Source of the DNA: a virus
Lineage: Duplodnaviria; Heunggongvirae; Uroviricota; Caudoviricetes
Strand: one strand, 5' to 3'
IMG/VR virus record: IMGVR_UViG_3300025162_000035
Length of the DNA: 19,963 bases
Below the pieces are notes generated by a model. The model saw nothing but the letters and a program-made list of their open reading frames with translations, had not been told where the DNA came from and did not search any database. Position numbers and translations under genes: made by a program. Shown in pieces: positions 707-19,963 of the stretch (the first letter of the stretch is position 1; every line of letters starts with the position of its first letter).

Positions 707-820
707 GAATGAAGACATGGGTTCAAATCCCACTGTAGGCTTTCCAAAAAAGAACCATAGCACACACGAGGTGTAAGGTATAGCCTATATAGTTTAGATG
801 GGAGAACGTCAATCTTATTA
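707..820 (+). ncRNA. Circularly permuted tRNA-like gene A (3' half before 5' half)
   Basis: 3' half 708-746 (T-loop TTCAAAT, TGTAGGC, CCA) precedes 5' half 783-820 (GCCTATA-TA-GTTT..GAAC). Acceptor strands pair 7/7. Confidence 0.7.
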
Positions 821-3828: not shown

Positions 3829-4273
3829 ATGATAAAGAAATTCAAAATATTTGAAAATCGTGATCGGTCTGAAGAAGTCCTATTAGGTCAAATTGTATTT
3901 AAATTTGATGAATTGAGAACTACTGGATTTTTTAATTGATCATATTATTCGCAAGTTTGATTTGAATTGGTACAATTGCTTAAAAACAAAGGATTCCCCA
4001 AAAATAGAATATGGTGATTATATATATTATGATGGGTTTGTTAATCCTAAAGTAATCAAAAATGTTGAAGCAACCTTTCAGGGTGTTAAGTTCAAAAGAT
4101 TGAACGTTAATCTTAAGAGTAGCTTTAATTATACATTTCAAGATGATGAAGGATATTACATAAGCAAGGACGTAAATATTCCAATATCAATGTTAAAAAG
4201 TTATTGGGATTCATTTCAAATGTATAAGATCGATGTCACCAATTATTTTAATTATCAAAAGTTCGATCTTTAA
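3829..4273 (+). pseudogene. MIKKFKIFE.../...KFDL family gene split by a +1 frameshift near 3916-3934
   Basis: Frame 1 MIKKFKIFEN...KFDEL stops at 3937; frame 2 is open from 3917 (ELLDFLIDHIIRKFDLNWY...QKFDL). Confidence 0.6.
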
Positions 4274-4285
4274 TCAGTTACTTAT

Positions 4286-6952: not shown

Positions 6953-7022
6953 TGAGAAAATGCCAACAGGAACGTAACCAACAACGGGCTTGAACCGTGA
7001 AACATCAACTGGCATTTTCTCA
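6953..7022 (+). ncRNA. Divergent member of the ACAGCAA anticodon-stem-loop ncRNA family
   Basis: 13-bp outer stem TGAGAAAATGCCA/TGGCATTTTCTCA, ACAGGAA motif, inner hairpin ACGG-GCTTGAA-CCGT. Confidence 0.5.
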
Positions 7023-7986: not shown

Positions 7987-8373
7987 ATGAGCCCAGATGC
8001 ATATATGAAATATCAAATTGAACAGCTTCATAAGCTGTTTCGTGAGATTGGTATTGATCAGTATACTCACGGTATGCCACCAATGGGGGAAGAGGATATG
8101 GGTCCTCACTACAATTCATATGTATTTAAGGCACCTCTTGCTGAAAATAGAAAAGTAAATGGTAAAATGTGCTATCTTCGAGGAGATTTTAGAATTCATC
8201 TTAACAGTGATACAAATTATATCACTGGTGTATATTTCTGTCATGTTTGGTTTCCTAATGGTCGAACCGATGAAATTAGGTCTAAAGATATTATGGGTGT
8301 AAAAAAGTTCATTGAAAAATATGAGCACGTATTCAATCCAAAGATTAAAATTCAAAAACGTTTTGATTTATAA
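7987..8373 (+). CDS. Hypothetical protein ending KRFDL
   Basis: Start reassigned to ATG 7987; family C-terminus. Confidence 0.75.
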   Translation: MSPDAYMKYQIEQLHKLFREIGIDQYTHGMPPMGEEDMGPHYNSYVFKAPLAENRKVNGKMCYLRGDFRIHLNSDTNYITGVYFCHVWFPNGRTDEIRSKDIMGVKKFIEKYEHVFNPKIKIQKRFDL

Positions 8374-8756: not shown

Positions 8757-8841
8757 GCACCGTTATCCGAGTGGTCGAAGGAATCAGGTTGTTACCCTGC
8801 CGAGCTACGGCTCCACGTGAGTTCGAATCTTACACGGTGCG
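8757..8841 (+). tRNA. tRNA with Asn(GUU) anticodon and long variable arm
   Basis: Acceptor GCACCGT/ACGGTGC, CAGG-TTGTTAC-CCTG, variable hairpin GAGC-TACG-GCTC. Confidence 0.85.
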
Positions 8842-8842
8842 C

Positions 8843-8911
8843 ATAAGTGTTTTTCACGAAAAGTGGTTAATTTTAACCACTTTTCACGAGAAATAAGCAT
8901 TTTTCACAAAA
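8843..8911. repeat. 13-bp perfect hairpin with three TTTTCAC direct repeats
   Basis: GAAAAGTGGTTAA-TT-TTAACCACTTTTC (8858-8885); TTTTCAC at 8851, 8881, 8901. Confidence 0.6.
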
Positions 8912-8913
8912 TT

Positions 8914-8981
8914 AGGATTGAAGGATACACACAGCAACTAAAAAAACTTGACTGTCAATCAAACAACACGTATCCTGTTCT
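8914..8981 (+). ncRNA. ACAGCAA-family ncRNA copy 1, Asp(GUC) anticodon loop
   Basis: AGGATAC/GTATCCT stem, ACAGCAA, TTGA-CTGTCAA-TCAA. Confidence 0.75.
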
Positions 8982-8990
8982 TAAAAAATT

Positions 8991-9060
8991 GAGGATAAAG
9001 AATACCTACAGCAATTAAAAAACTTGTCTGCAAAACAAACCAATGCGTATTCTGTTTCTC
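8991..9060 (+). ncRNA. ACAGCAA-family ncRNA copy 2, Cys(GCA) anticodon loop
   Basis: AGAATAC/GTATTCT stem, ACAGCAA, TTGT-CTGCAAA-ACAA. Confidence 0.75.
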
Positions 9061-9085
9061 TTTTTTTATTTTAATATATATGTTC

Positions 9086-9649
9086 ATGAAGTATATTAAA
9101 ATGTTTGAAGAAATGAAATCGTGGGATATTGCTAAGTATTTCGAAGAGTTGAGAGATGCGATGACTGCTGGCAAATTGGATAAAGTAAATAGTATTATTT
9201 TTGAAGCCCCTGACGTTGTTTTTTGGCAAGATAATGATAATAGTGCTGGATGGACAGCTCTTATGTGGGGGGTGGCTGACCACACTGACACAAAAGTTGA
9301 CATAATCAAAGTCTTAATTAATGCTGGGTCTAATGTTAATGCTACTGATAATTTTGGATGCACTGCTTTAATTCATGCCGCAACTATTGATTTAGATAGA
9401 TCAACTGATAAACATCAAGCCTTAGGACAAACTAAAGAAATTCTTAAATTGTTATTAGATTCTGGTGCTAATCCATATATTAAAGATTTTGAACCAGATG
9501 AGGATGAAAAATATTATGTAAATTATACAGGCGGAGAGGATTGGTATGATCATGCGACTCCAGATATTAAACAATGGATTGAAGAAAATTGCCCAGAGTT
9601 TTGGGCAAAGAAGAGACGTGAATTGGCTCAGAAAAGGTTTGATTTATAA
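9086..9649 (+). CDS. Ankyrin-repeat protein with MKYIKMFEE/KRFDL termini
   Basis: GWTALMWG...IIKVLINAGSNVNATDNFGCTALIHAA...ILKLLLDSGANPYIKD. Confidence 0.9.
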   Translation: MKYIKMFEEMKSWDIAKYFEELRDAMTAGKLDKVNSIIFEAPDVVFWQDNDNSAGWTALMWGVADHTDTKVDIIKVLINAGSNVNATDNFGCTALIHAATIDLDRSTDKHQALGQTKEILKLLLDSGANPYIKDFEPDEDEKYYVNYTGGEDWYDHATPDIKQWIEENCPEFWAKKRRELAQKRFDL

Positions 9650-9668
9650 TCGTAAAAATTATTTATAT

Positions 9669-9753
9669 GTTGCATTATGCAAGCGGTTAAAGCAGTAAGG
9701 CTCTCAACCTTACCCCTTTACAGGGTTCGTGGGTTCAAATCCCACATGCAATA
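9669..9753 (+). tRNA. tRNA with Glu(CUC) anticodon and long variable arm
   Basis: Acceptor GTTGCAT/ATGCAAT, TAAGG-CTCTCAA-CCTTA, variable hairpin CCCT-TTAC-AGGG. Confidence 0.87.
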
Positions 9754-9754
9754 C

Positions 9755-9827
9755 TGAGATTAAAGAAAACTTACAGCAATTCACAAAAATTTGACTCTTA
9801 ATCAAACCAATCAGTTTTCTGTTCTCA
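9755..9827 (+). ncRNA. ACAGCAA-family ncRNA copy 3, Lys(CUU) anticodon loop
   Basis: AGAAAAC/GTTTTCT stem, ACAGCAA, TTGA-CTCTTAA-TCAA. Confidence 0.75.
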
Positions 9828-9830
9828 AAT

Positions 9831-9904
9831 GCTCCCATCGTCTAATGGTTAGGACATCAGGTTTTCATCCTGAAGATTTGCGGGTTCGAGCCCCGCTGGG
9901 AGTA
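9831..9904 (+). tRNA. trnE: tRNA-Glu(UUC)
   Basis: Acceptor GCTCCCA/TGGGAGT, TCAGG-TTTTCAT-CCTGA, T arm GCGGG-TTCGAGC-CCCGC. Confidence 0.93.
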
Positions 9905-9985
9905 CTTAGATAAAAACCATTATTGAACTTTTATTCTGATAAATGGAAAAAAGGAAGAAATATGAAATTCAGAACATATTTATAA

Positions 9986-16964: not shown

Positions 16965-17630
16965 ATGATTCTTAAATTAACATTATCCAAAAATACTAAA
17001 ATCGTACCTTTCAATTATGCTATTCTGATTAGAGGTAAACGCCAAGGGTGGCTTGGAAACCAAGATAGGAATAAAATATCGTTATTTACATTTTCTAATA
17101 TATTAGGTGGAATATCAACTCCAAATGGATACAATTTTCCAAATGGTGGTGAAATTTATTTCGGTTATCACGATAAAACAGATATTATAAATATTATTTT
17201 AGCCATAGTAAAAAATAATAATTTTATTTGTGGCATGAAAATTATAAATTTTATTCCTGTAAATTATAATTCAATAACTACGGATGATTTTATCTGTTTA
17301 TCCCCAATTCATTTAGCAAAAAAATCAATTGGTTGGAATTCAAAAAATATACCAGTAACATATAAACATCCAGATAGTAATGTAATATTACAGGATACGA
17401 TGATACGAAAAATGCAAGCTGCTGGTGTTAATAGCAATTATTTTGACATTCAGTTTGATTTATCGGATAATACAAAATATATTAGCTCTATTTCTTATGA
17501 CGATAAAATAATAAAATATAGTGTTTGCTCACTTATCATAAAGGGTACCTCTCAGCAAAAGGAATTTTGTGTGAATGCGGGTGTTGGAAAATCAACAGGA
17601 ATGGGATTTGGATGTGTTTTACCTAAATAA
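16965..17630 (+). CDS. cas6: CRISPR-associated endoribonuclease Cas6
   Basis: C-terminal glycine-rich loop AGVGKSTGMGFGCV; LFTFSNI motif; 221 aa. Confidence 0.88.
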   Translation: MILKLTLSKNTKIVPFNYAILIRGKRQGWLGNQDRNKISLFTFSNILGGISTPNGYNFPNGGEIYFGYHDKTDIINIILAIVKNNNFICGMKIINFIPVNYNSITTDDFICLSPIHLAKKSIGWNSKNIPVTYKHPDSNVILQDTMIRKMQAAGVNSNYFDIQFDLSDNTKYISSISYDDKIIKYSVCSLIIKGTSQQKEFCVNAGVGKSTGMGFGCVLPK

Positions 17631-17639
17631 TTAAAAATT

Positions 17640-18218
17640 ATGTTTGTAGTAGTTTATAAAGGACCGTTTGGATTTATTAAGCCATATGACACTAATCGTG
17701 ATGATTATATCAAAAGTCAGAATTTTCTTTTACCGTCTGCCGTTAAGGGGATAGAATTATATTTATTTCCAGAACTATTAAAAGATAAGACACATATTCT
17801 CAAAAAGATTGTAAGATGTAAAATTAATTTTGATAATATAGTCAAAGATTTGGGAGTAATACAAAGCCCACTTGTTAAAAGAGTAAGTAAAAGGGCTACC
17901 GATAAAATGCATAGTTTTATATTAGCTACCAGTTGTATTGAGCGTGGACTTTTACACAATGTTACTGTATATGTCGGGTTTAATAATATGGATGATGCAT
18001 TAATAGCGTCAAGCAGTCATATTAGAATTAGTGGAAAAGATGAAACTTGTTACCCATCTGGTGACCGAGCTATTGAAATTTCGGATGATGAATTTGATAA
18101 AATAAGCGGGTGGGAATTTAAAGAAACAAGTCAGGATGATCCAAATTCTATTTTAGTTGGTAATAATCGATATAAAAACAATGAAAAAATATATGGAAAA
18201 ATTATCCATACTAAATAA
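17640..18218 (+). CDS. cas5: Cas5-like RAMP protein
   Basis: N-terminal VVYKGPFGFIKP and SQNFLLPSAVKGI resemble the Cas5 N-terminus; lies between cas6 and cas3. Confidence 0.62.
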   Translation: MFVVVYKGPFGFIKPYDTNRDDYIKSQNFLLPSAVKGIELYLFPELLKDKTHILKKIVRCKINFDNIVKDLGVIQSPLVKRVSKRATDKMHSFILATSCIERGLLHNVTVYVGFNNMDDALIASSSHIRISGKDETCYPSGDRAIEISDDEFDKISGWEFKETSQDDPNSILVGNNRYKNNEKIYGKIIHTK

Positions 18219-19963
18219 TATCAGGGCAAAAGGATTGCCTACAAATACTTCTTTATATCAGCATTTACATGATGCTAAAGAATTTATGAAAATTCTGGTG
18301 GAAAATTTAGATTCCACCTTTAATTTTGATTTATCCATATGTATAATAGCTGCTATATTACATGATATTGGAAAGGCTCATCCAGAATTTCAATTTAGGT
18401 TGGATAAACCATACAATCCAGATTGGAATCCGTTTAGGCATGAAATATCATCAATCCTATTCATATCGCTTTTTGATAAAAAGAATTGGGATACTATTAT
18501 AGATATGATCATAGCCCATCATAAATCTATTTATGTAAGAAGCGGCTCAAACATTGGAAGTTTTCACAAAGGAATCTTAACATTACACGACAATTTTGGT
18601 GATGATGTTTTTAATATGCATTGTGGAACCAAAGAAATGTGGGATGTGTGGTCAAAGGATGCGTTAGAAATATTATCTCATTTGGGAATATCAGTTAGAA
18701 ATATATCGTATGATGAAGCCAGACAAAATTATAATTATGTGTTAGATTATTGTCAAAAAATAAAAGATGATAATATTTGTGAAGTATCATATGATAGAGG
18801 ATTAATGAATGCTGCTGATTATATATCATCACATATTGATCAATCAAGAGGAAAAATAAATGAATTGATTGAAAAAATGTTTGTTGTTCCAGATTTTAGT
18901 TTTTATGAAAATCGGAAGAATAAAATGTATCCTTTTTCAATGATGGATATAAATAAAAAAAAGAAAAGAAAGCATACTATTATTATTGGTCCAACAAGTT
19001 CAGGAAAGACGGATATGCTCTCCAGATGTTGTAAAAAACGTGTTTTTTATATTCTTCCATTTCAGGCATCTATTAATGCCATGTATAATAGATTTCGGGC
19101 TGATCTGAATAACCCAGAAAATAAAAATTTAGCCATATCTTTATTACATGCAAATGCACAAAGTGTCTTAAATAACAATAATGATATATCGAGCCACGTA
19201 TTAAAAAATAAAATAGGTTGTGGGCTAAAGGTCTTAACACCTTATCAAATTTCAAAAATTCTTATTGGAGGAACAGGTTATGAGCAATTAATTTTAGATT
19301 TAGCTGGGCAAGATGTAATTATGGATGAAAATCAATGCTATAATGAAAGATCGAAGCCATTTATTTTAACTTTAGTTAAAGCTCTCGATAAGATTGGTTG
19401 CAATATTCATTTTGGTACTGCAACTATGCCTTCGGACTTAAAAAAGAAAATATTGAAGATTTTAGGACGTAACAACGTTGATGTAATAGAATTATCAAGA
19501 AAACAAAAAGCTGAATTTGACAGGCATATTGTATATAAAAGAAATTCTTTTGATGATTGTACGGATGCTATTAATGATGCGGTTTTACAAAATAAAAAAG
19601 TTTTAGTTGTTGCTAATACAATCGATGAATCTATACGTTTATATAAAATATTGAAAAGTAGATATTCAGATAAAAATAAGGTTCTTTTACACAGCCGATT
19701 TAAGCGAAAAAATCGAAATTATAAAGAAACGTTATTGTTCGATAAATCTTTTTTAGCGAATGGCTGTATAGTTGTTTCAACTCAAGTTGTGGAAGTAAGC
19801 TTGGATATAGATTTTGACGTTCTTTTTACTTATTGCTGTCCCTTGGATAGTTTACTACAGCGAATGGGTAGAATAAACAGAAGGCGTGGATTTAACAAAA
19901 TTTGCCCAGTTTATGTCATAAATGTGTATGATACTCCAGCAAAAGAAATGGTTGGTGGGTATA
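18193..19963 (+). CDS. cas3: Cas3 HD nuclease-SF2 helicase, 3' truncated by window edge
   Basis: Read manually (absent from ORF track): YQH, LHDIGK, RHE, AHH, AAD; GPTSSGKT, MDENQ, TATMP, LHSRF, STQVVEVSLDID, QRMGRINR; no stop through base 19963. Confidence 0.92.
   Translation, partial: MEKLSILNNIRAKGLPTNTSLYQHLHDAKEFMKILVENLDSTFNFDLSICIIAAILHDIGKAHPEFQFRLDKPYNPDWNPFRHEISSILFISLFDKKNWDTIIDMIIAHHKSIYVRSGSNIGSFHKGILTLHDNFGDDVFNMHCGTKEMWDVWSKDALEILSHLGISVRNISYDEARQNYNYVLDYCQKIKDDNICEVSYDRGLMNAADYISSHIDQSRGKINELIEKMFVVPDFSFYENRKNKMYPFSMMDINKKKKRKHTIIIGPTSSGKTDMLSRCCKKRVFYILPFQASINAMYNRFRADLNNPENKNLAISLLHANAQSVLNNNNDISSHVLKNKIGCGLKVLTPYQISKILIGGTGYEQLILDLAGQDVIMDENQCYNERSKPFILTLVKALDKIGCNIHFGTATMPSDLKKKILKILGRNNVDVIELSRKQKAEFDRHIVYKRNSFDDCTDAINDAVLQNKKVLVVANTIDESIRLYKILKSRYSDKNKVLLHSRFKRKNRNYKETLLFDKSFLANGCIVVSTQVVEVSLDIDFDVLFTYCCPLDSLLQRMGRINRRRGFNKICPVYVINVYDTPAKEMVGGY

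What the first reader, a model, noticed from the sequence alone, without database searches (positions are those of the whole stretch)
8914..9827. Covarying ncRNA family that displays interchangeable anticodon loops without a tRNA body
Seen: three copies (8914-8981, 8991-9060, 9755-9827) share one architecture. It runs: short outer stem, internal loop, 7-bp stem, invariant ACAGCAA, A-rich linker, 4-bp stem with a canonical 7-nt CU-NNN-AA loop, AC-rich linker, closing strands. The 7-bp stems covary (AGGATAC/GTATCCT, AGAATAC/GTATTCT, AGAAAAC/GTTTTCT), as do the hairpin stems (TTGA/TCAA, TTGT/ACAA). The triplet differs each time: GUC (Asp), GCA (Cys), CUU (Lys). There is no D arm, T arm or CCA, so they cannot be ordinary tRNAs. 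Established: several anti-phage effectors are anticodon nucleases, and PrrC cuts tRNA-Lys. Inference: these RNAs are programmable anticodon decoys or baits for tRNA nucleases, modification enzymes or repair proteins. They could instead be Y-RNA-like partners of Ro60/RtcB systems. I cannot confirm whether the motif is already catalogued.
Basis: partly seen in the sequence, partly recalled or inferred. Interest (0 to 1): 0.92.

Follow-up and report, generated by a model that had tools for sequence, protein, structure and literature searches.

The report
Phage Y-like RNAs displaying anticodon arms
Three small RNA genes in a lake phage's tRNA cluster belong to an undescribed RNA family: a constant "handle" that in related phages accompanies a Ro60-shaped protein gene, carrying here a mimic of a tRNA anticodon arm, and the handle matches RNAs thought unique to social amoebae.

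Summary
All three copies have a covarying 7-bp terminal helix, ACAGCAA two bases after it, and a 4-5-bp hairpin with a CU-NNN-AA loop (GUC, GCA, CUU). The outer stem is a local feature only.

The copies belong to a family of at least 54 members in 11 phage records. Almost all lie in or beside tRNA arrays, or beside one particular gene, on the tRNA strand.
- The constant part is a handle: AAG, helix, 2 nt, CAGCAA, then helix and CUGUU.
- The variable part is built from tRNA modules. These are anticodon arms, an anticodon arm plus T arm, or whole circularly permuted tRNAs with a capped acceptor stem.
- Canonical CU-NNN-AA loops occur in 16 of 54 members, against 0.2 expected.

A DUF2828/DUF7788 gene is present in 7 of 8 RNA-positive records and in neither of 2 RNA-negative phages, often directly beside an RNA copy. 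Its model matches Ro60 over its full length. RtcB sits next to it in the 2 records that have one.

The only Rfam match is Dictyostelium Class I RNA, below threshold.

Best reading: Y-RNA-like partners of a phage Ro60-like protein that display anticodon-arm mimics. This phage's own Ro60-like gene and expression of the RNAs could not be tested. This scan has noted the same family before on other DNA.

The parts
8921..8979 (+). Copy 1. Handle AAG 8921-8923; helix 8922-8928 with 8970-8976; ACAGCAA 8931-8937; anticodon-arm mimic 8948-8962 with loop CUGUCAA 8952-8958 (triplet GUC); tail CUGUU 8975-8979.
   Evidence: CM R2 58.1 bits. RF01414 23.8 bits, full length.
8998..9056 (+). Copy 2. Handle AAG 8998-9000; helix 8999-9005 with 9047-9053; ACAGCAA 9008-9014; anticodon-arm mimic 9024-9038 with loop CUGCAAA 9028-9034 (triplet GCA); tail CUGUU 9052-9056, followed by a T-run and the ankyrin ORF.
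   Evidence: CM R2 55.2 bits. RF01414 32.1 bits.
9763..9823 (+). Copy 3. Handle AAG 9763-9765; helix 9764-9770 with 9814-9820; ACAGCAA 9773-9779; anticodon-arm mimic 9790-9806 with loop CUCUUAA 9795-9801 (triplet CUU); tail CUGUU 9819-9823. It fills the spacer between two tRNAs exactly.
   Evidence: CM R2 63.1 bits. RF01414 33.8 bits.
8914..8981 (+). Outer 4-5-bp stem around copy 1. The equivalents are 8991-9060 for copy 2 and 9755-9827 for copy 3. This is a local feature of the window's copies.
   Evidence: MFE folds. Not conserved across the family.
9669..9754 (+). Upstream tRNA. Its 3' processing would free the 5' end of copy 3 (6-nt gap to the CM hit).
9831..9905 (+). Downstream tRNA-Glu(UUC). 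RNase P cleavage at its 5' end would set the 3' end of copy 3 (5-nt gap). This is inferred.
   Evidence: In 23/54 family members a same-strand tRNA starts within 20 nt downstream.
8757..8842 (+). tRNA upstream of copies 1 and 2 (76 nt before copy 1), on the same strand. The copies are probably in the same transcription unit.

Best explanation
The three elements are genes for ~60-nt small RNAs of an undescribed, widespread phage RNA family built like a Y RNA.

The handle is constant: AAG, a 7-bp terminal helix, 2 nt, (A)CAGCAA, and on the 3' side the complementary strand followed by CUGUU. It is the docking site for a phage-encoded Ro60-fold protein of the DUF2828/DUF7788 family.

The payload is variable and sits in the loop. 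Here it is a faithful mimic of a tRNA anticodon arm, one each with the triplets GUC, GCA and CUU.

The RNAs are transcribed with the tRNA operon. They are released by the same processing that matures the neighbouring tRNAs: RNase P at the downstream tRNA, and 3' processing of the upstream one.

The ribonucleoprotein then presents an anticodon arm to a factor that reads anticodon loops. That factor could be an anticodon nuclease, a repair ligase such as RtcB, a modification enzyme or a synthetase. The RNA would tether or occupy it, in the way Y RNAs tether Ro60 to an effector.

Shown here: the family, the helix covariation, the anticodon-arm mimicry, the tRNA-array context, the co-occurrence and adjacency with the Ro60-fold gene in relatives, and that gene's fold.

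Inferred: that handle and protein bind, how the RNAs are processed, what the payload engages, and that this particular phage carries the protein.
For: 1. Family. A pattern free of any payload constraint gave 17 further hits with 7/7 helix pairs in viral contigs, in a bimodal distribution. CMs carrying only the terminal helix found 54 distinct members in 11 records, 2-7 per phage.
2. Helix. 99.5% of cells are paired, with 65 double-sided changes and 6 of 7 pairs covarying. Slid controls give 40-50%.
3. Payload. CU-NNN-AA 7-nt loops on stems of at least 4 bp occur in 16/54 members, against 0.19 +/- 0.43 in shuffles (maximum 3 in 500). Strict tRNA-type loops occur in 25/54, against 1.4. Stems are 4-5 bp and there are 17 different triplets.
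4. Longer payloads. Relatives carry an anticodon arm plus T arm, or whole permuted tRNAs with tetraloop-capped acceptor stems. This is the YrlA topology.
5. Context. Every tRNA in these loci lies on the RNA's strand. In 23/54 members a tRNA starts within 20 nt downstream.
6. Protein link. PF11443 is present in 7/8 RNA-positive records; the one negative is a 39%-complete fragment. It is absent from 2 RNA-negative phages (T4, LR745206) and from 14 control genomes.
7. Adjacency. An RNA copy lies 12 nt upstream of the gene in G001. Copies flank the gene in G003. A copy lies just upstream in G009 and in LR756501.
8. Fold. The AF2 model has pLDDT 86 and pTM 0.85. The top 13 PDB hits and top 5 Swiss-Prot hits are all Ro60, full length, TM 0.54-0.67.
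9. RtcB. It is adjacent to the gene in the 2 of 5 records that have one.
Against: - No DUF2828 ORF lies in the window or within ~7.5 kb upstream. The phage's genome is not held, so the partner is unverified here.
- Binding of handle to protein is inferred from co-occurrence and adjacency only.
- The handle has none of the known Ro60-binding signatures, and canonical TROVE is absent.
- In G005 the RNAs lie ~47 kb or more from the gene.
- Expression was not observed.
- Copies next to the gene could be cis-regulatory sites rather than trans partners.
- The CMs were seeded from the window copies, which may favour payloads like theirs. The payload-blind pattern set shows the same enrichment.
Confidence: 0.6

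Rival explanations
1. The RNAs are free-standing anticodon-arm decoys or baits. They act without any Ro60-like protein, soaking up or being cut by host anticodon nucleases, or titrating anticodon-loop modification enzymes. The handle serves only as a stabilising clamp.
For: - The loops are canonical anticodon loops with many different triplets.
- Lys triplets (UUU three times, CUU once) are the commonest. GUN triplets (Asp, Asn, Tyr) also occur. From my own knowledge, not checked here against a paper: Lys tRNA is the substrate of PrrC and PARIS, and the GUN tRNAs are colicin E5 substrates.
- By an earlier scan note, not checked here, this genome encodes an RNA ligase and a CCA-type enzyme elsewhere.
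Against: - A mere clamp would not need the invariant AAG, CAGCAA and CUGUU conserved across very different phages.
- It does not explain the tight co-occurrence and adjacency with the Ro60-fold gene.
- Many members carry payloads that are not anticodon arms.
Confidence: 0.15
2. The elements are decayed tRNA genes or structured spacers of the tRNA operon. They would be processing or insulating elements that help RNase P or RNase E mature the neighbouring tRNAs, with no function of their own as RNAs.
For: - 23/54 members sit immediately upstream of a tRNA, and copy 3 fills a tRNA-tRNA spacer exactly.
- The payloads are pieces of tRNA.
- Two arms carry the same amino-acid class of triplet as the next tRNA.
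Against: - Several members lie next to the Ro60-like gene with no tRNA nearby (G003, G009, LR756501).
- The handle sequence is conserved across unrelated phages, and the loops keep C32, U33, A37 and A38, so selection acts on the RNA itself.
Confidence: 0.08
3. The elements act in cis as an operator or 5'-UTR, or at the DNA level. The handle would be a binding site through which a protein controls adjacent genes. In relatives that gene is the Ro60-like gene; here it is the ankyrin ORF that starts ~20-40 nt after copy 2. Alternatively the inverted repeat is a recombination site.
For: - Copies lie 12-200 nt upstream of the DUF2828 ORF in four records.
- Copies 1-2 directly precede ORF 9080-9649.
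- One contig of run X4 joins 8785 to 9727, skipping copies 1-2 and the ankyrin gene.
Against: - Most copies are followed by tRNAs, not ORFs.
- Hits are strand-specific with the tRNAs.
- Occasional G-U pairs in the helix would be A-C on the other strand.
- tRNA-like payloads make little sense for a DNA site.
Confidence: 0.07

Closest known systems
Class I RNAs of dictyostelid social amoebae (Rfam RF01414; Kjellin et al. 2021, PMC7919456)
   Same: - Genomic AAG start.
- A 6-7-bp terminal helix whose first G pairs with the C of a 3' CUGU.
- The box ACAGCAA next to the 5' strand, followed by an A/U-rich region.
- A variable remainder, and a length of about 55-65 nt.
- RF01414 is the only non-tRNA Rfam family that matches. 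It gives 12 full-length hits of 23.8-33.8 bits, and every one falls on a family member.
- The published D. discoideum sequences read GTTGAC-CTT-ACAGCAA...GTCAAC-TG.
   Different: - All scores are below the gathering score of 41.5.
- The spacer between helix and box is 2 nt rather than 3.
- The setting is a phage tRNA operon, not a DUSE-driven eukaryotic gene.
- The D. discoideum payloads read show no obvious anticodon-arm hairpin (by eye; not analysed).
- The only partner shown to bind directly in Dictyostelium is the RRM protein Rnp1A, not a Ro60-like protein.
[quoted passage not shown]
Bacterial and phage Y RNAs: YrlA with Ro60/Rsr, and the rsr-yrlBA-rtcBA operon (Chen et al. 2014, PMC4201824; Rfam RF02553)
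   Same: - A terminal helix joining the 5' and 3' ends, plus a variable tRNA-mimicking module.
- Long relatives have the YrlA topology: T arm, capped acceptor stem, D arm.
- Linkage to a Ro60-fold gene, and to RtcB where present.
   Different: - No RF02553 match on the copies.
- No GNCGAAN0-1G motif.
- The partner is DUF2828/DUF7788, not a Pfam TROVE protein (0/5 records).
- The window's payload mimics the anticodon arm, which YrlA lacks.
- There are many copies per genome, inside tRNA arrays.
Permuted and split tRNA genes (Cyanidioschyzon, Nanoarchaeum); armless mitochondrial tRNAs
   Same: - Some relatives hold a whole tRNA in the order anticodon arm, T arm, acceptor stem, D arm.
- The short copies have a 7-bp helix, 2 nt and an anticodon arm, like a tRNA without D and T arms.
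   Different: - The acceptor stems of the permuted bodies are closed by GAAA or UUCG tetraloops.
- There is no CCA and no BHB motif.
- The constant handle has no tRNA counterpart.
- Nothing suggests that these RNAs decode.
Phage T4 stable RNAs C and D (species 1 and 2) in the tRNA cluster
   Same: Small stable RNAs of unknown function, co-transcribed and processed with phage tRNAs.
   Different: T4 has no match to the family's CM and no DUF2828 gene.

Membership tests
ACAGCAA-handle RNAs (undescribed family defined here and in earlier scan notes) | 7-bp terminal helix starting A-U, G-C, flanked by AAG and CUGU(U) | tested here: met
   All three copies. Family-wide, 99.5% of cells are paired.
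ACAGCAA-handle RNAs (undescribed family defined here and in earlier scan notes) | (A)CAGCAA box 2 nt after the 5' strand of the helix | tested here: met
   Box at 8931, 9008 and 9773. The spacing is the same in relatives.
ACAGCAA-handle RNAs (undescribed family defined here and in earlier scan notes) | Recognised by a CM that does not rest on the window copies alone | tested here: met
   R1, built from the window copies only, finds relatives at 23-39 bits. R2, built from 26 sequences, scores the copies at 55-63 bits, but they are part of that model.
ACAGCAA-handle RNAs (undescribed family defined here and in earlier scan notes) | A Ro60-fold DUF2828/DUF7788 gene in the same genome | not testable with these tools
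   The genome is not held. There is none in the window or ~7.5 kb upstream. It is present in 7/8 relatives tested.
Dictyostelium Class I RNA (RF01414) | Score at or above Rfam's gathering score (41.5 bits) | tested here: not met
   23.8, 32.1 and 33.8 bits.
Dictyostelium Class I RNA (RF01414) | Terminal 6-bp helix with an invariant 5' G, AAG start and CUGU end | tested here: met
   Sequence of the copies, compared with the features stated in PMC7919456.
Dictyostelium Class I RNA (RF01414) | 11-nt motif CCUUACAGCAA adjacent to the 5' strand | tested here: inconclusive
   ACAGCAA is exact and the preceding bases match in part (CCU-ACAGCAA, CUUACAGCAA). The cmscan alignments shown (copies 1 and 2) place a 1-nt deletion there.
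Dictyostelium Class I RNA (RF01414) | DUSE promoter about 60 nt upstream, in a dictyostelid genome | not tested
   The setting is a phage tRNA operon from lake metagenomes. I did not scan for the DUSE sequence.
YrlA / Y RNA (RF02553) | Match to the covariance model; GNCGAAN0-1G motif in the Ro60-binding module | tested here: not met
   No RF02553 hit on the copies at E up to 10. The motif is absent from their sequence.
YrlA / Y RNA (RF02553) | tRNA-like D arm, T arm and capped acceptor domain | tested here: not met
   The window copies carry only an anticodon arm. Such a domain is present in the long relatives L040:4009-4131, L040:8055-8180 and L133:645-772.
YrlA / Y RNA (RF02553) | Encoded with a Ro60 (TROVE) gene | tested here: inconclusive
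   Pfam TROVE is found in 0/5 relatives, but a Ro60-fold DUF2828 protein is found in 7/8. Unknown for this phage.
tRNA (RF00005) | Cloverleaf with D and T arms, recognised by ARAGORN or the Rfam tRNA model | tested here: not met
   Neither tool calls the copies.

The most novel reading that the evidence does not exclude
The phage ACAGCAA-handle RNAs and the Class I RNAs of dictyostelid amoebae are one RNA family, shared by descent or by transfer. Their handle docks on Ro60-fold DUF2828/DUF7788 proteins, which also occur in eukaryotes. If so, the unexplained amoebal RNAs would be Y-RNA analogues. The phage versions would be programmable: the interchangeable anticodon arm would direct the ribonucleoprotein to one tRNA species' nuclease, repair enzyme or synthetase during infection.
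Probability: 0.2. Interest if true: 0.9.

Novelty: new variant of a known kind. Interest (0 to 1): 0.75.

Why it matters
No Rfam family and no paper I could find describes these RNAs. Yet they occur several times per genome in phages of 130-735 kb, and they track a very large, uncharacterised protein family: at least 8000 relatives in the search, mostly viral.

If the pairing is real, it defines a second kind of Ro60/Y-RNA particle. Its RNA carries swappable tRNA parts, which bears directly on the phage-host conflict over tRNA cleavage and repair.

It also gives a testable lead for Class I RNAs. These have been reported as unique to Dictyostelia, and their mechanism is unknown.

Tried and rejected
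**Expression**
- No RNA holder was listed for the window or the 1.3-kb region.

**Looking for the partner gene in this phage**
- The window's genome is not held.
- The 516-aa protein has no relative in viral contigs.
- Walking with the look-up of encoding contigs reached ~7.5 kb upstream. It found no further RNA copy and no PF11443 gene.
- The 58.5-kb ENA record cannot be searched.

**Family and protein tests**
- Pfam TROVE was found in 0/5 relatives.
- T4, including its rnaC/rnaD region, has no CM match.
- The single-sequence AF2 model was unusable (pLDDT 39.6) and was replaced by an alignment-based model.

**Features that did not hold up**
- The proposed fourth copy at 6953-7022 is not detected by the CM, even at E 10 with filters off. 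A weak candidate at 4224-4274 (17 bits, E 0.07) is left open.
- The outer stem is not a family feature.

**Population variation**
- Contigs of four runs are identical over the region, so no micro-evolutionary test was possible.

**Literature**
- Searches for ACAGCAA with phage, for DUF2828, and for DDB_G0281243 gave nothing relevant.

**Ideas considered and set aside**
- Armless tRNAs that decode. There is no CCA, and the closed acceptor stems of the relatives argue against it.
- Precursors of permuted tRNAs spliced at the handle. The short members would leave only a tiny circle.
- A self-cleaving ribozyme. There is no Rfam ribozyme hit on the copies.
- CRISPR repeats. The spacing and the variable helix do not fit.
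- The minus strand. All hits follow the tRNA strand.

**Not attempted**
- A scan of genome contigs or metagenome contigs.
Full report
**The observation**

The window is part of a tRNA-rich region of an uncultured phage. ARAGORN finds 14 tRNAs and Rfam 16, all on the + strand. Contigs of freshwater and lake metagenomes from several studies hold the region.

The three elements are exactly as described. Each has these parts:
- AAG.
- A 7-bp helix: AGGATAC/GTATCCT, AGAATAC/GTATTCT or AGAAAAC/GTTTTCT.
- Two bases, then ACAGCAA, then an A-rich linker.
- A 4-5-bp hairpin with a 7-nt loop: CUGUCAA, CUGCAAA or CUCUUAA.
- A short linker, the 3' strand of the helix, and CUGUU.

All 33 pair cells of the 3-copy alignment are standard pairs, with three double-sided changes. 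Slid registers give about 40%. A pattern made only of the constant letters matches 3 times, against 0.00 expected.

Single-sequence folding is not significant (z about -1.2 to -1.35). Neither tRNA finder calls the copies.

**A family, not three repeats**

I scanned IMG/VR with that payload-blind pattern and checked the helix independently. The result was bimodal: 20 matches with 7/7 pairs, 17 of them outside the window, against a chance tail.

I built two covariance models carrying only the terminal helix. R1 came from the three copies and R2 from 26 sequences. Run over the loci and then over whole records, they gave 54 distinct members in 11 records.
- There are 2-7 members per phage, including three records CheckV estimates as 100% complete (144, 239 and 394 kb).
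- The 735-kb uncultured phage LR756501 also has them.
- T4 and the 635-kb phage LR745206 have none.

The helix is paired in 99.5% of cells. There are 65 double-sided changes, and six of seven pairs covary. The first A-U pair switches to G-C in the AGG...CCG variants.

The proposed fourth copy at 6953-7022 is not recognised.

**Context**

Every tRNA in these loci lies on the same strand as the RNAs. In 23 of 54 members a tRNA begins within 20 nt after the CM hit, mostly within 0-5 nt.

Copy 3 fills the spacer between two tRNAs, with gaps of 6 and 5 nt. So the ends of the RNAs can be set by ordinary tRNA processing. This is an inference.

A second context appears in members that are not next to tRNAs; see the protein partner below.

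**The payload**

The region between box and 3' strand varies in length (41-146 nt overall) and in content, but it is built from tRNA parts.

Among the 54 members:
- 16 have a stem of at least 4 bp closing a 7-nt loop of the exact form CU-NNN-AA. Mononucleotide shuffles give 0.19 +/- 0.43, with a maximum of 3 in 500.
- 25 have a loop with a pyrimidine at position 32, U33, a purine at 37 and a non-G at 38, against 1.4 expected.

Among 21 such arms, with T-loops excluded:
- The stem has 4 pairs in all of them, a fifth pair in 12 and a sixth in only 3, as in a tRNA.
- C32 is present in 16, A37 in 19 and A38 in 20.
- There are 17 different triplets. UUU occurs three times; GUC and UGA twice each.

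Longer members add more tRNA parts:
- A T arm (L157:1565-1656).
- A D arm, a long central hairpin in the anticodon-arm position, and a T arm (L160:1501-1646).
- T arm, acceptor stem and D arm, with the acceptor capped by UUCG (L133:645-772).
- A whole tRNA in permuted order, namely anticodon arm, V loop, T arm, acceptor 3' strand, GAAA, acceptor 5' strand, D arm (L040:4009-4131 and 8055-8180).

The anticodon arm of the short copies occupies the same slot as that of the permuted tRNAs.

A caveat is that the models were seeded from the window and may favour similar payloads. The payload-blind set shows the same enrichment.

**What is known that resembles it**

Against all of Rfam 15, the only non-tRNA family that matches these elements is RF01414, Class I RNA of Dictyostelium. 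All hits are full length (1-56/56).
- The window copies score 33.8, 32.1 and 23.8 bits.
- Nine more members in seven other loci score 23.8-31.8 bits.
- All 12 RF01414 hits fall on family members.
- All are below the gathering score of 41.5.

Kjellin et al. (PMC7919456) define Class I RNAs by these features, and report them as absent outside Dictyostelia:
- A genomic AAG start.
- A 6-bp helix whose invariant G pairs with the C of a 3' CUGU.
- An 11-nt motif, CCUUACAGCAA, beside the 5' strand.
- A variable remainder.

The published sequences read GTTGAC-CTT-ACAGCAA...GTCAAC-TG. The phage handle shares all of this except one spacer base. Whether that reflects descent, transfer or convergence on a common kind of partner cannot be decided here.

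**The protein partner**

The topology of the long members suggested Y RNAs. However, Pfam TROVE was absent from five relatives. The YrlA motif GNCGAAN0-1G (PMC4201824) is absent from the handle.

Earlier notes of this scan named a different candidate, DUF2828. I tested it.

PF11443 distribution:
- Present in 7 of 8 RNA-positive records. The exception is a 39%-complete fragment.
- Absent from both RNA-negative phages.
- Absent from all 14 control genomes.

The genes also carry PF25043.

Position of the RNAs relative to the gene:
- G001: an RNA copy ends 12 nt before the ORF.
- G003: copies lie on both sides, and one starts at the base after the stop codon.
- G009 and LR756501: a copy lies just upstream.

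An alignment-based AF2 model of the G001 protein is confident (pLDDT 86, pTM 0.85).
- Its 13 best PDB matches are all Ro60/TROVE structures aligned over the full length (TM 0.38-0.66, most 0.54-0.66; E down to 1.5e-8).
- Its best Swiss-Prot matches are Ro60 of mouse, Deinococcus, worm, human and frog.
- A sequence profile also ranks a TROVE structure first among PDB chains, weakly, at E 0.025.

RtcB is present in 2 of 5 records. In G005 it lies directly next to the DUF2828 gene. LR756501 has two RtcB matches; the partial one lies next to the gene, in the order RtcB-like gene, RNA, DUF2828. This recalls the rsr-yrlBA-rtcBA operon.

**Interpretation**

The best-supported reading is that the three window RNAs are Y-RNA-like partners of a phage Ro60-fold protein. 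The handle would dock on the protein. The anticodon-arm mimic would be the business end, offered to something that recognises anticodon loops.

What remains open for this locus:
- Whether this phage encodes the protein. There is none in the window or 7.5 kb upstream, and the genome is not held.
- Whether the RNAs are made. No RNA run is listed.
- What the payload engages.

The same family has been noted several times before by this scan on other genomes. I used those notes as leads, and re-derived the RNA family, the RF01414 likeness, the co-occurrence and the fold independently here.

Noticed in passing
L040:4009-4131(-), L040:8055-8180(-), L133:645-772(-): The same handle encloses complete or near-complete tRNA bodies in circularly permuted order. 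Their acceptor stems are closed by GAAA or UUCG tetraloops. The two L040 acceptor stems each have two central mismatches.
   Followed up: partly
window 707-820 and 1018-1108: There are tRNA 3' halves followed by 5' halves, each with a TTCCAAAAAAGAA or CTCCAAAAAAGAA linker after the acceptor 3' strand. They are not flanked by the ACAGCAA handle, so they are a different arrangement from the permuted payloads above.
   Followed up: partly
window 8843-8913: The spacer before copy 1 holds the octamer TTTTCAC(G/A) three times (TTTTCACG at 8853 and 8882, TTTTCACA at 8902) and a perfect 13-bp palindrome, GAAAAGTGGTTAA/TTAACCACTTTTC (about 8859-8887). There is no T-run after it. It could be a promoter or operator for copies 1-2 and the ankyrin gene.
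   Followed up: no
window 8785-9727: One contig of lake run X4 joins 8785 to 9727 with 33 other letters. This would be a variant lacking copies 1-2 and the ankyrin ORF, probably by exchange between the two similar long-arm tRNAs. It was laid at 85% likeness, so it may come from a related phage.
   Followed up: no
window 4224-4274: Weak CM hit (17 bits, E 0.07) just upstream of tRNA-Met: AAGATCGA...TCGATCTT with GUCACCAA in place of the box. It may be a decayed family member, and it overlaps the end of ORF 3962-4273.
   Followed up: no
L091:1620-1705: A Hatchet self-cleaving ribozyme (68.6 bits, above the gathering score) lies about 1 kb upstream of a run of four family members in a 19.6-kb viral contig.
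   Followed up: no
L061:3028-3358(-): A phage-encoded tmRNA (63 bits) sits between family members inside the tRNA array of a 128-kb viral contig.
   Followed up: no
L157:1501-1564(-) and L028:3713-3786(+): In two cases the triplet shown by the anticodon-arm mimic matches the amino acid of the next tRNA: UCC before three tRNA-Gly genes, and UUU 51 nt before tRNA-Lys(UUU). This hints that payloads arise from neighbouring tRNA genes.
   Followed up: no
window 16965-19962: Cas6 and Cas3 (HD plus helicase) genes lie in the phage, with two further large ORFs beyond the window end in a sister contig. This looks like a phage-borne type I CRISPR-Cas module. No repeat array was looked for.
   Followed up: no
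PMC7919456 supplement 19 (DdR-66, DdR-67): Two long D. discoideum Class I RNAs carry an insert (GGTGGGAGAC...GTGAAA(T/G)ACCACC) that looks like a piece of large-subunit rRNA. So amoebal payloads may also be borrowed from stable RNAs.
   Followed up: no
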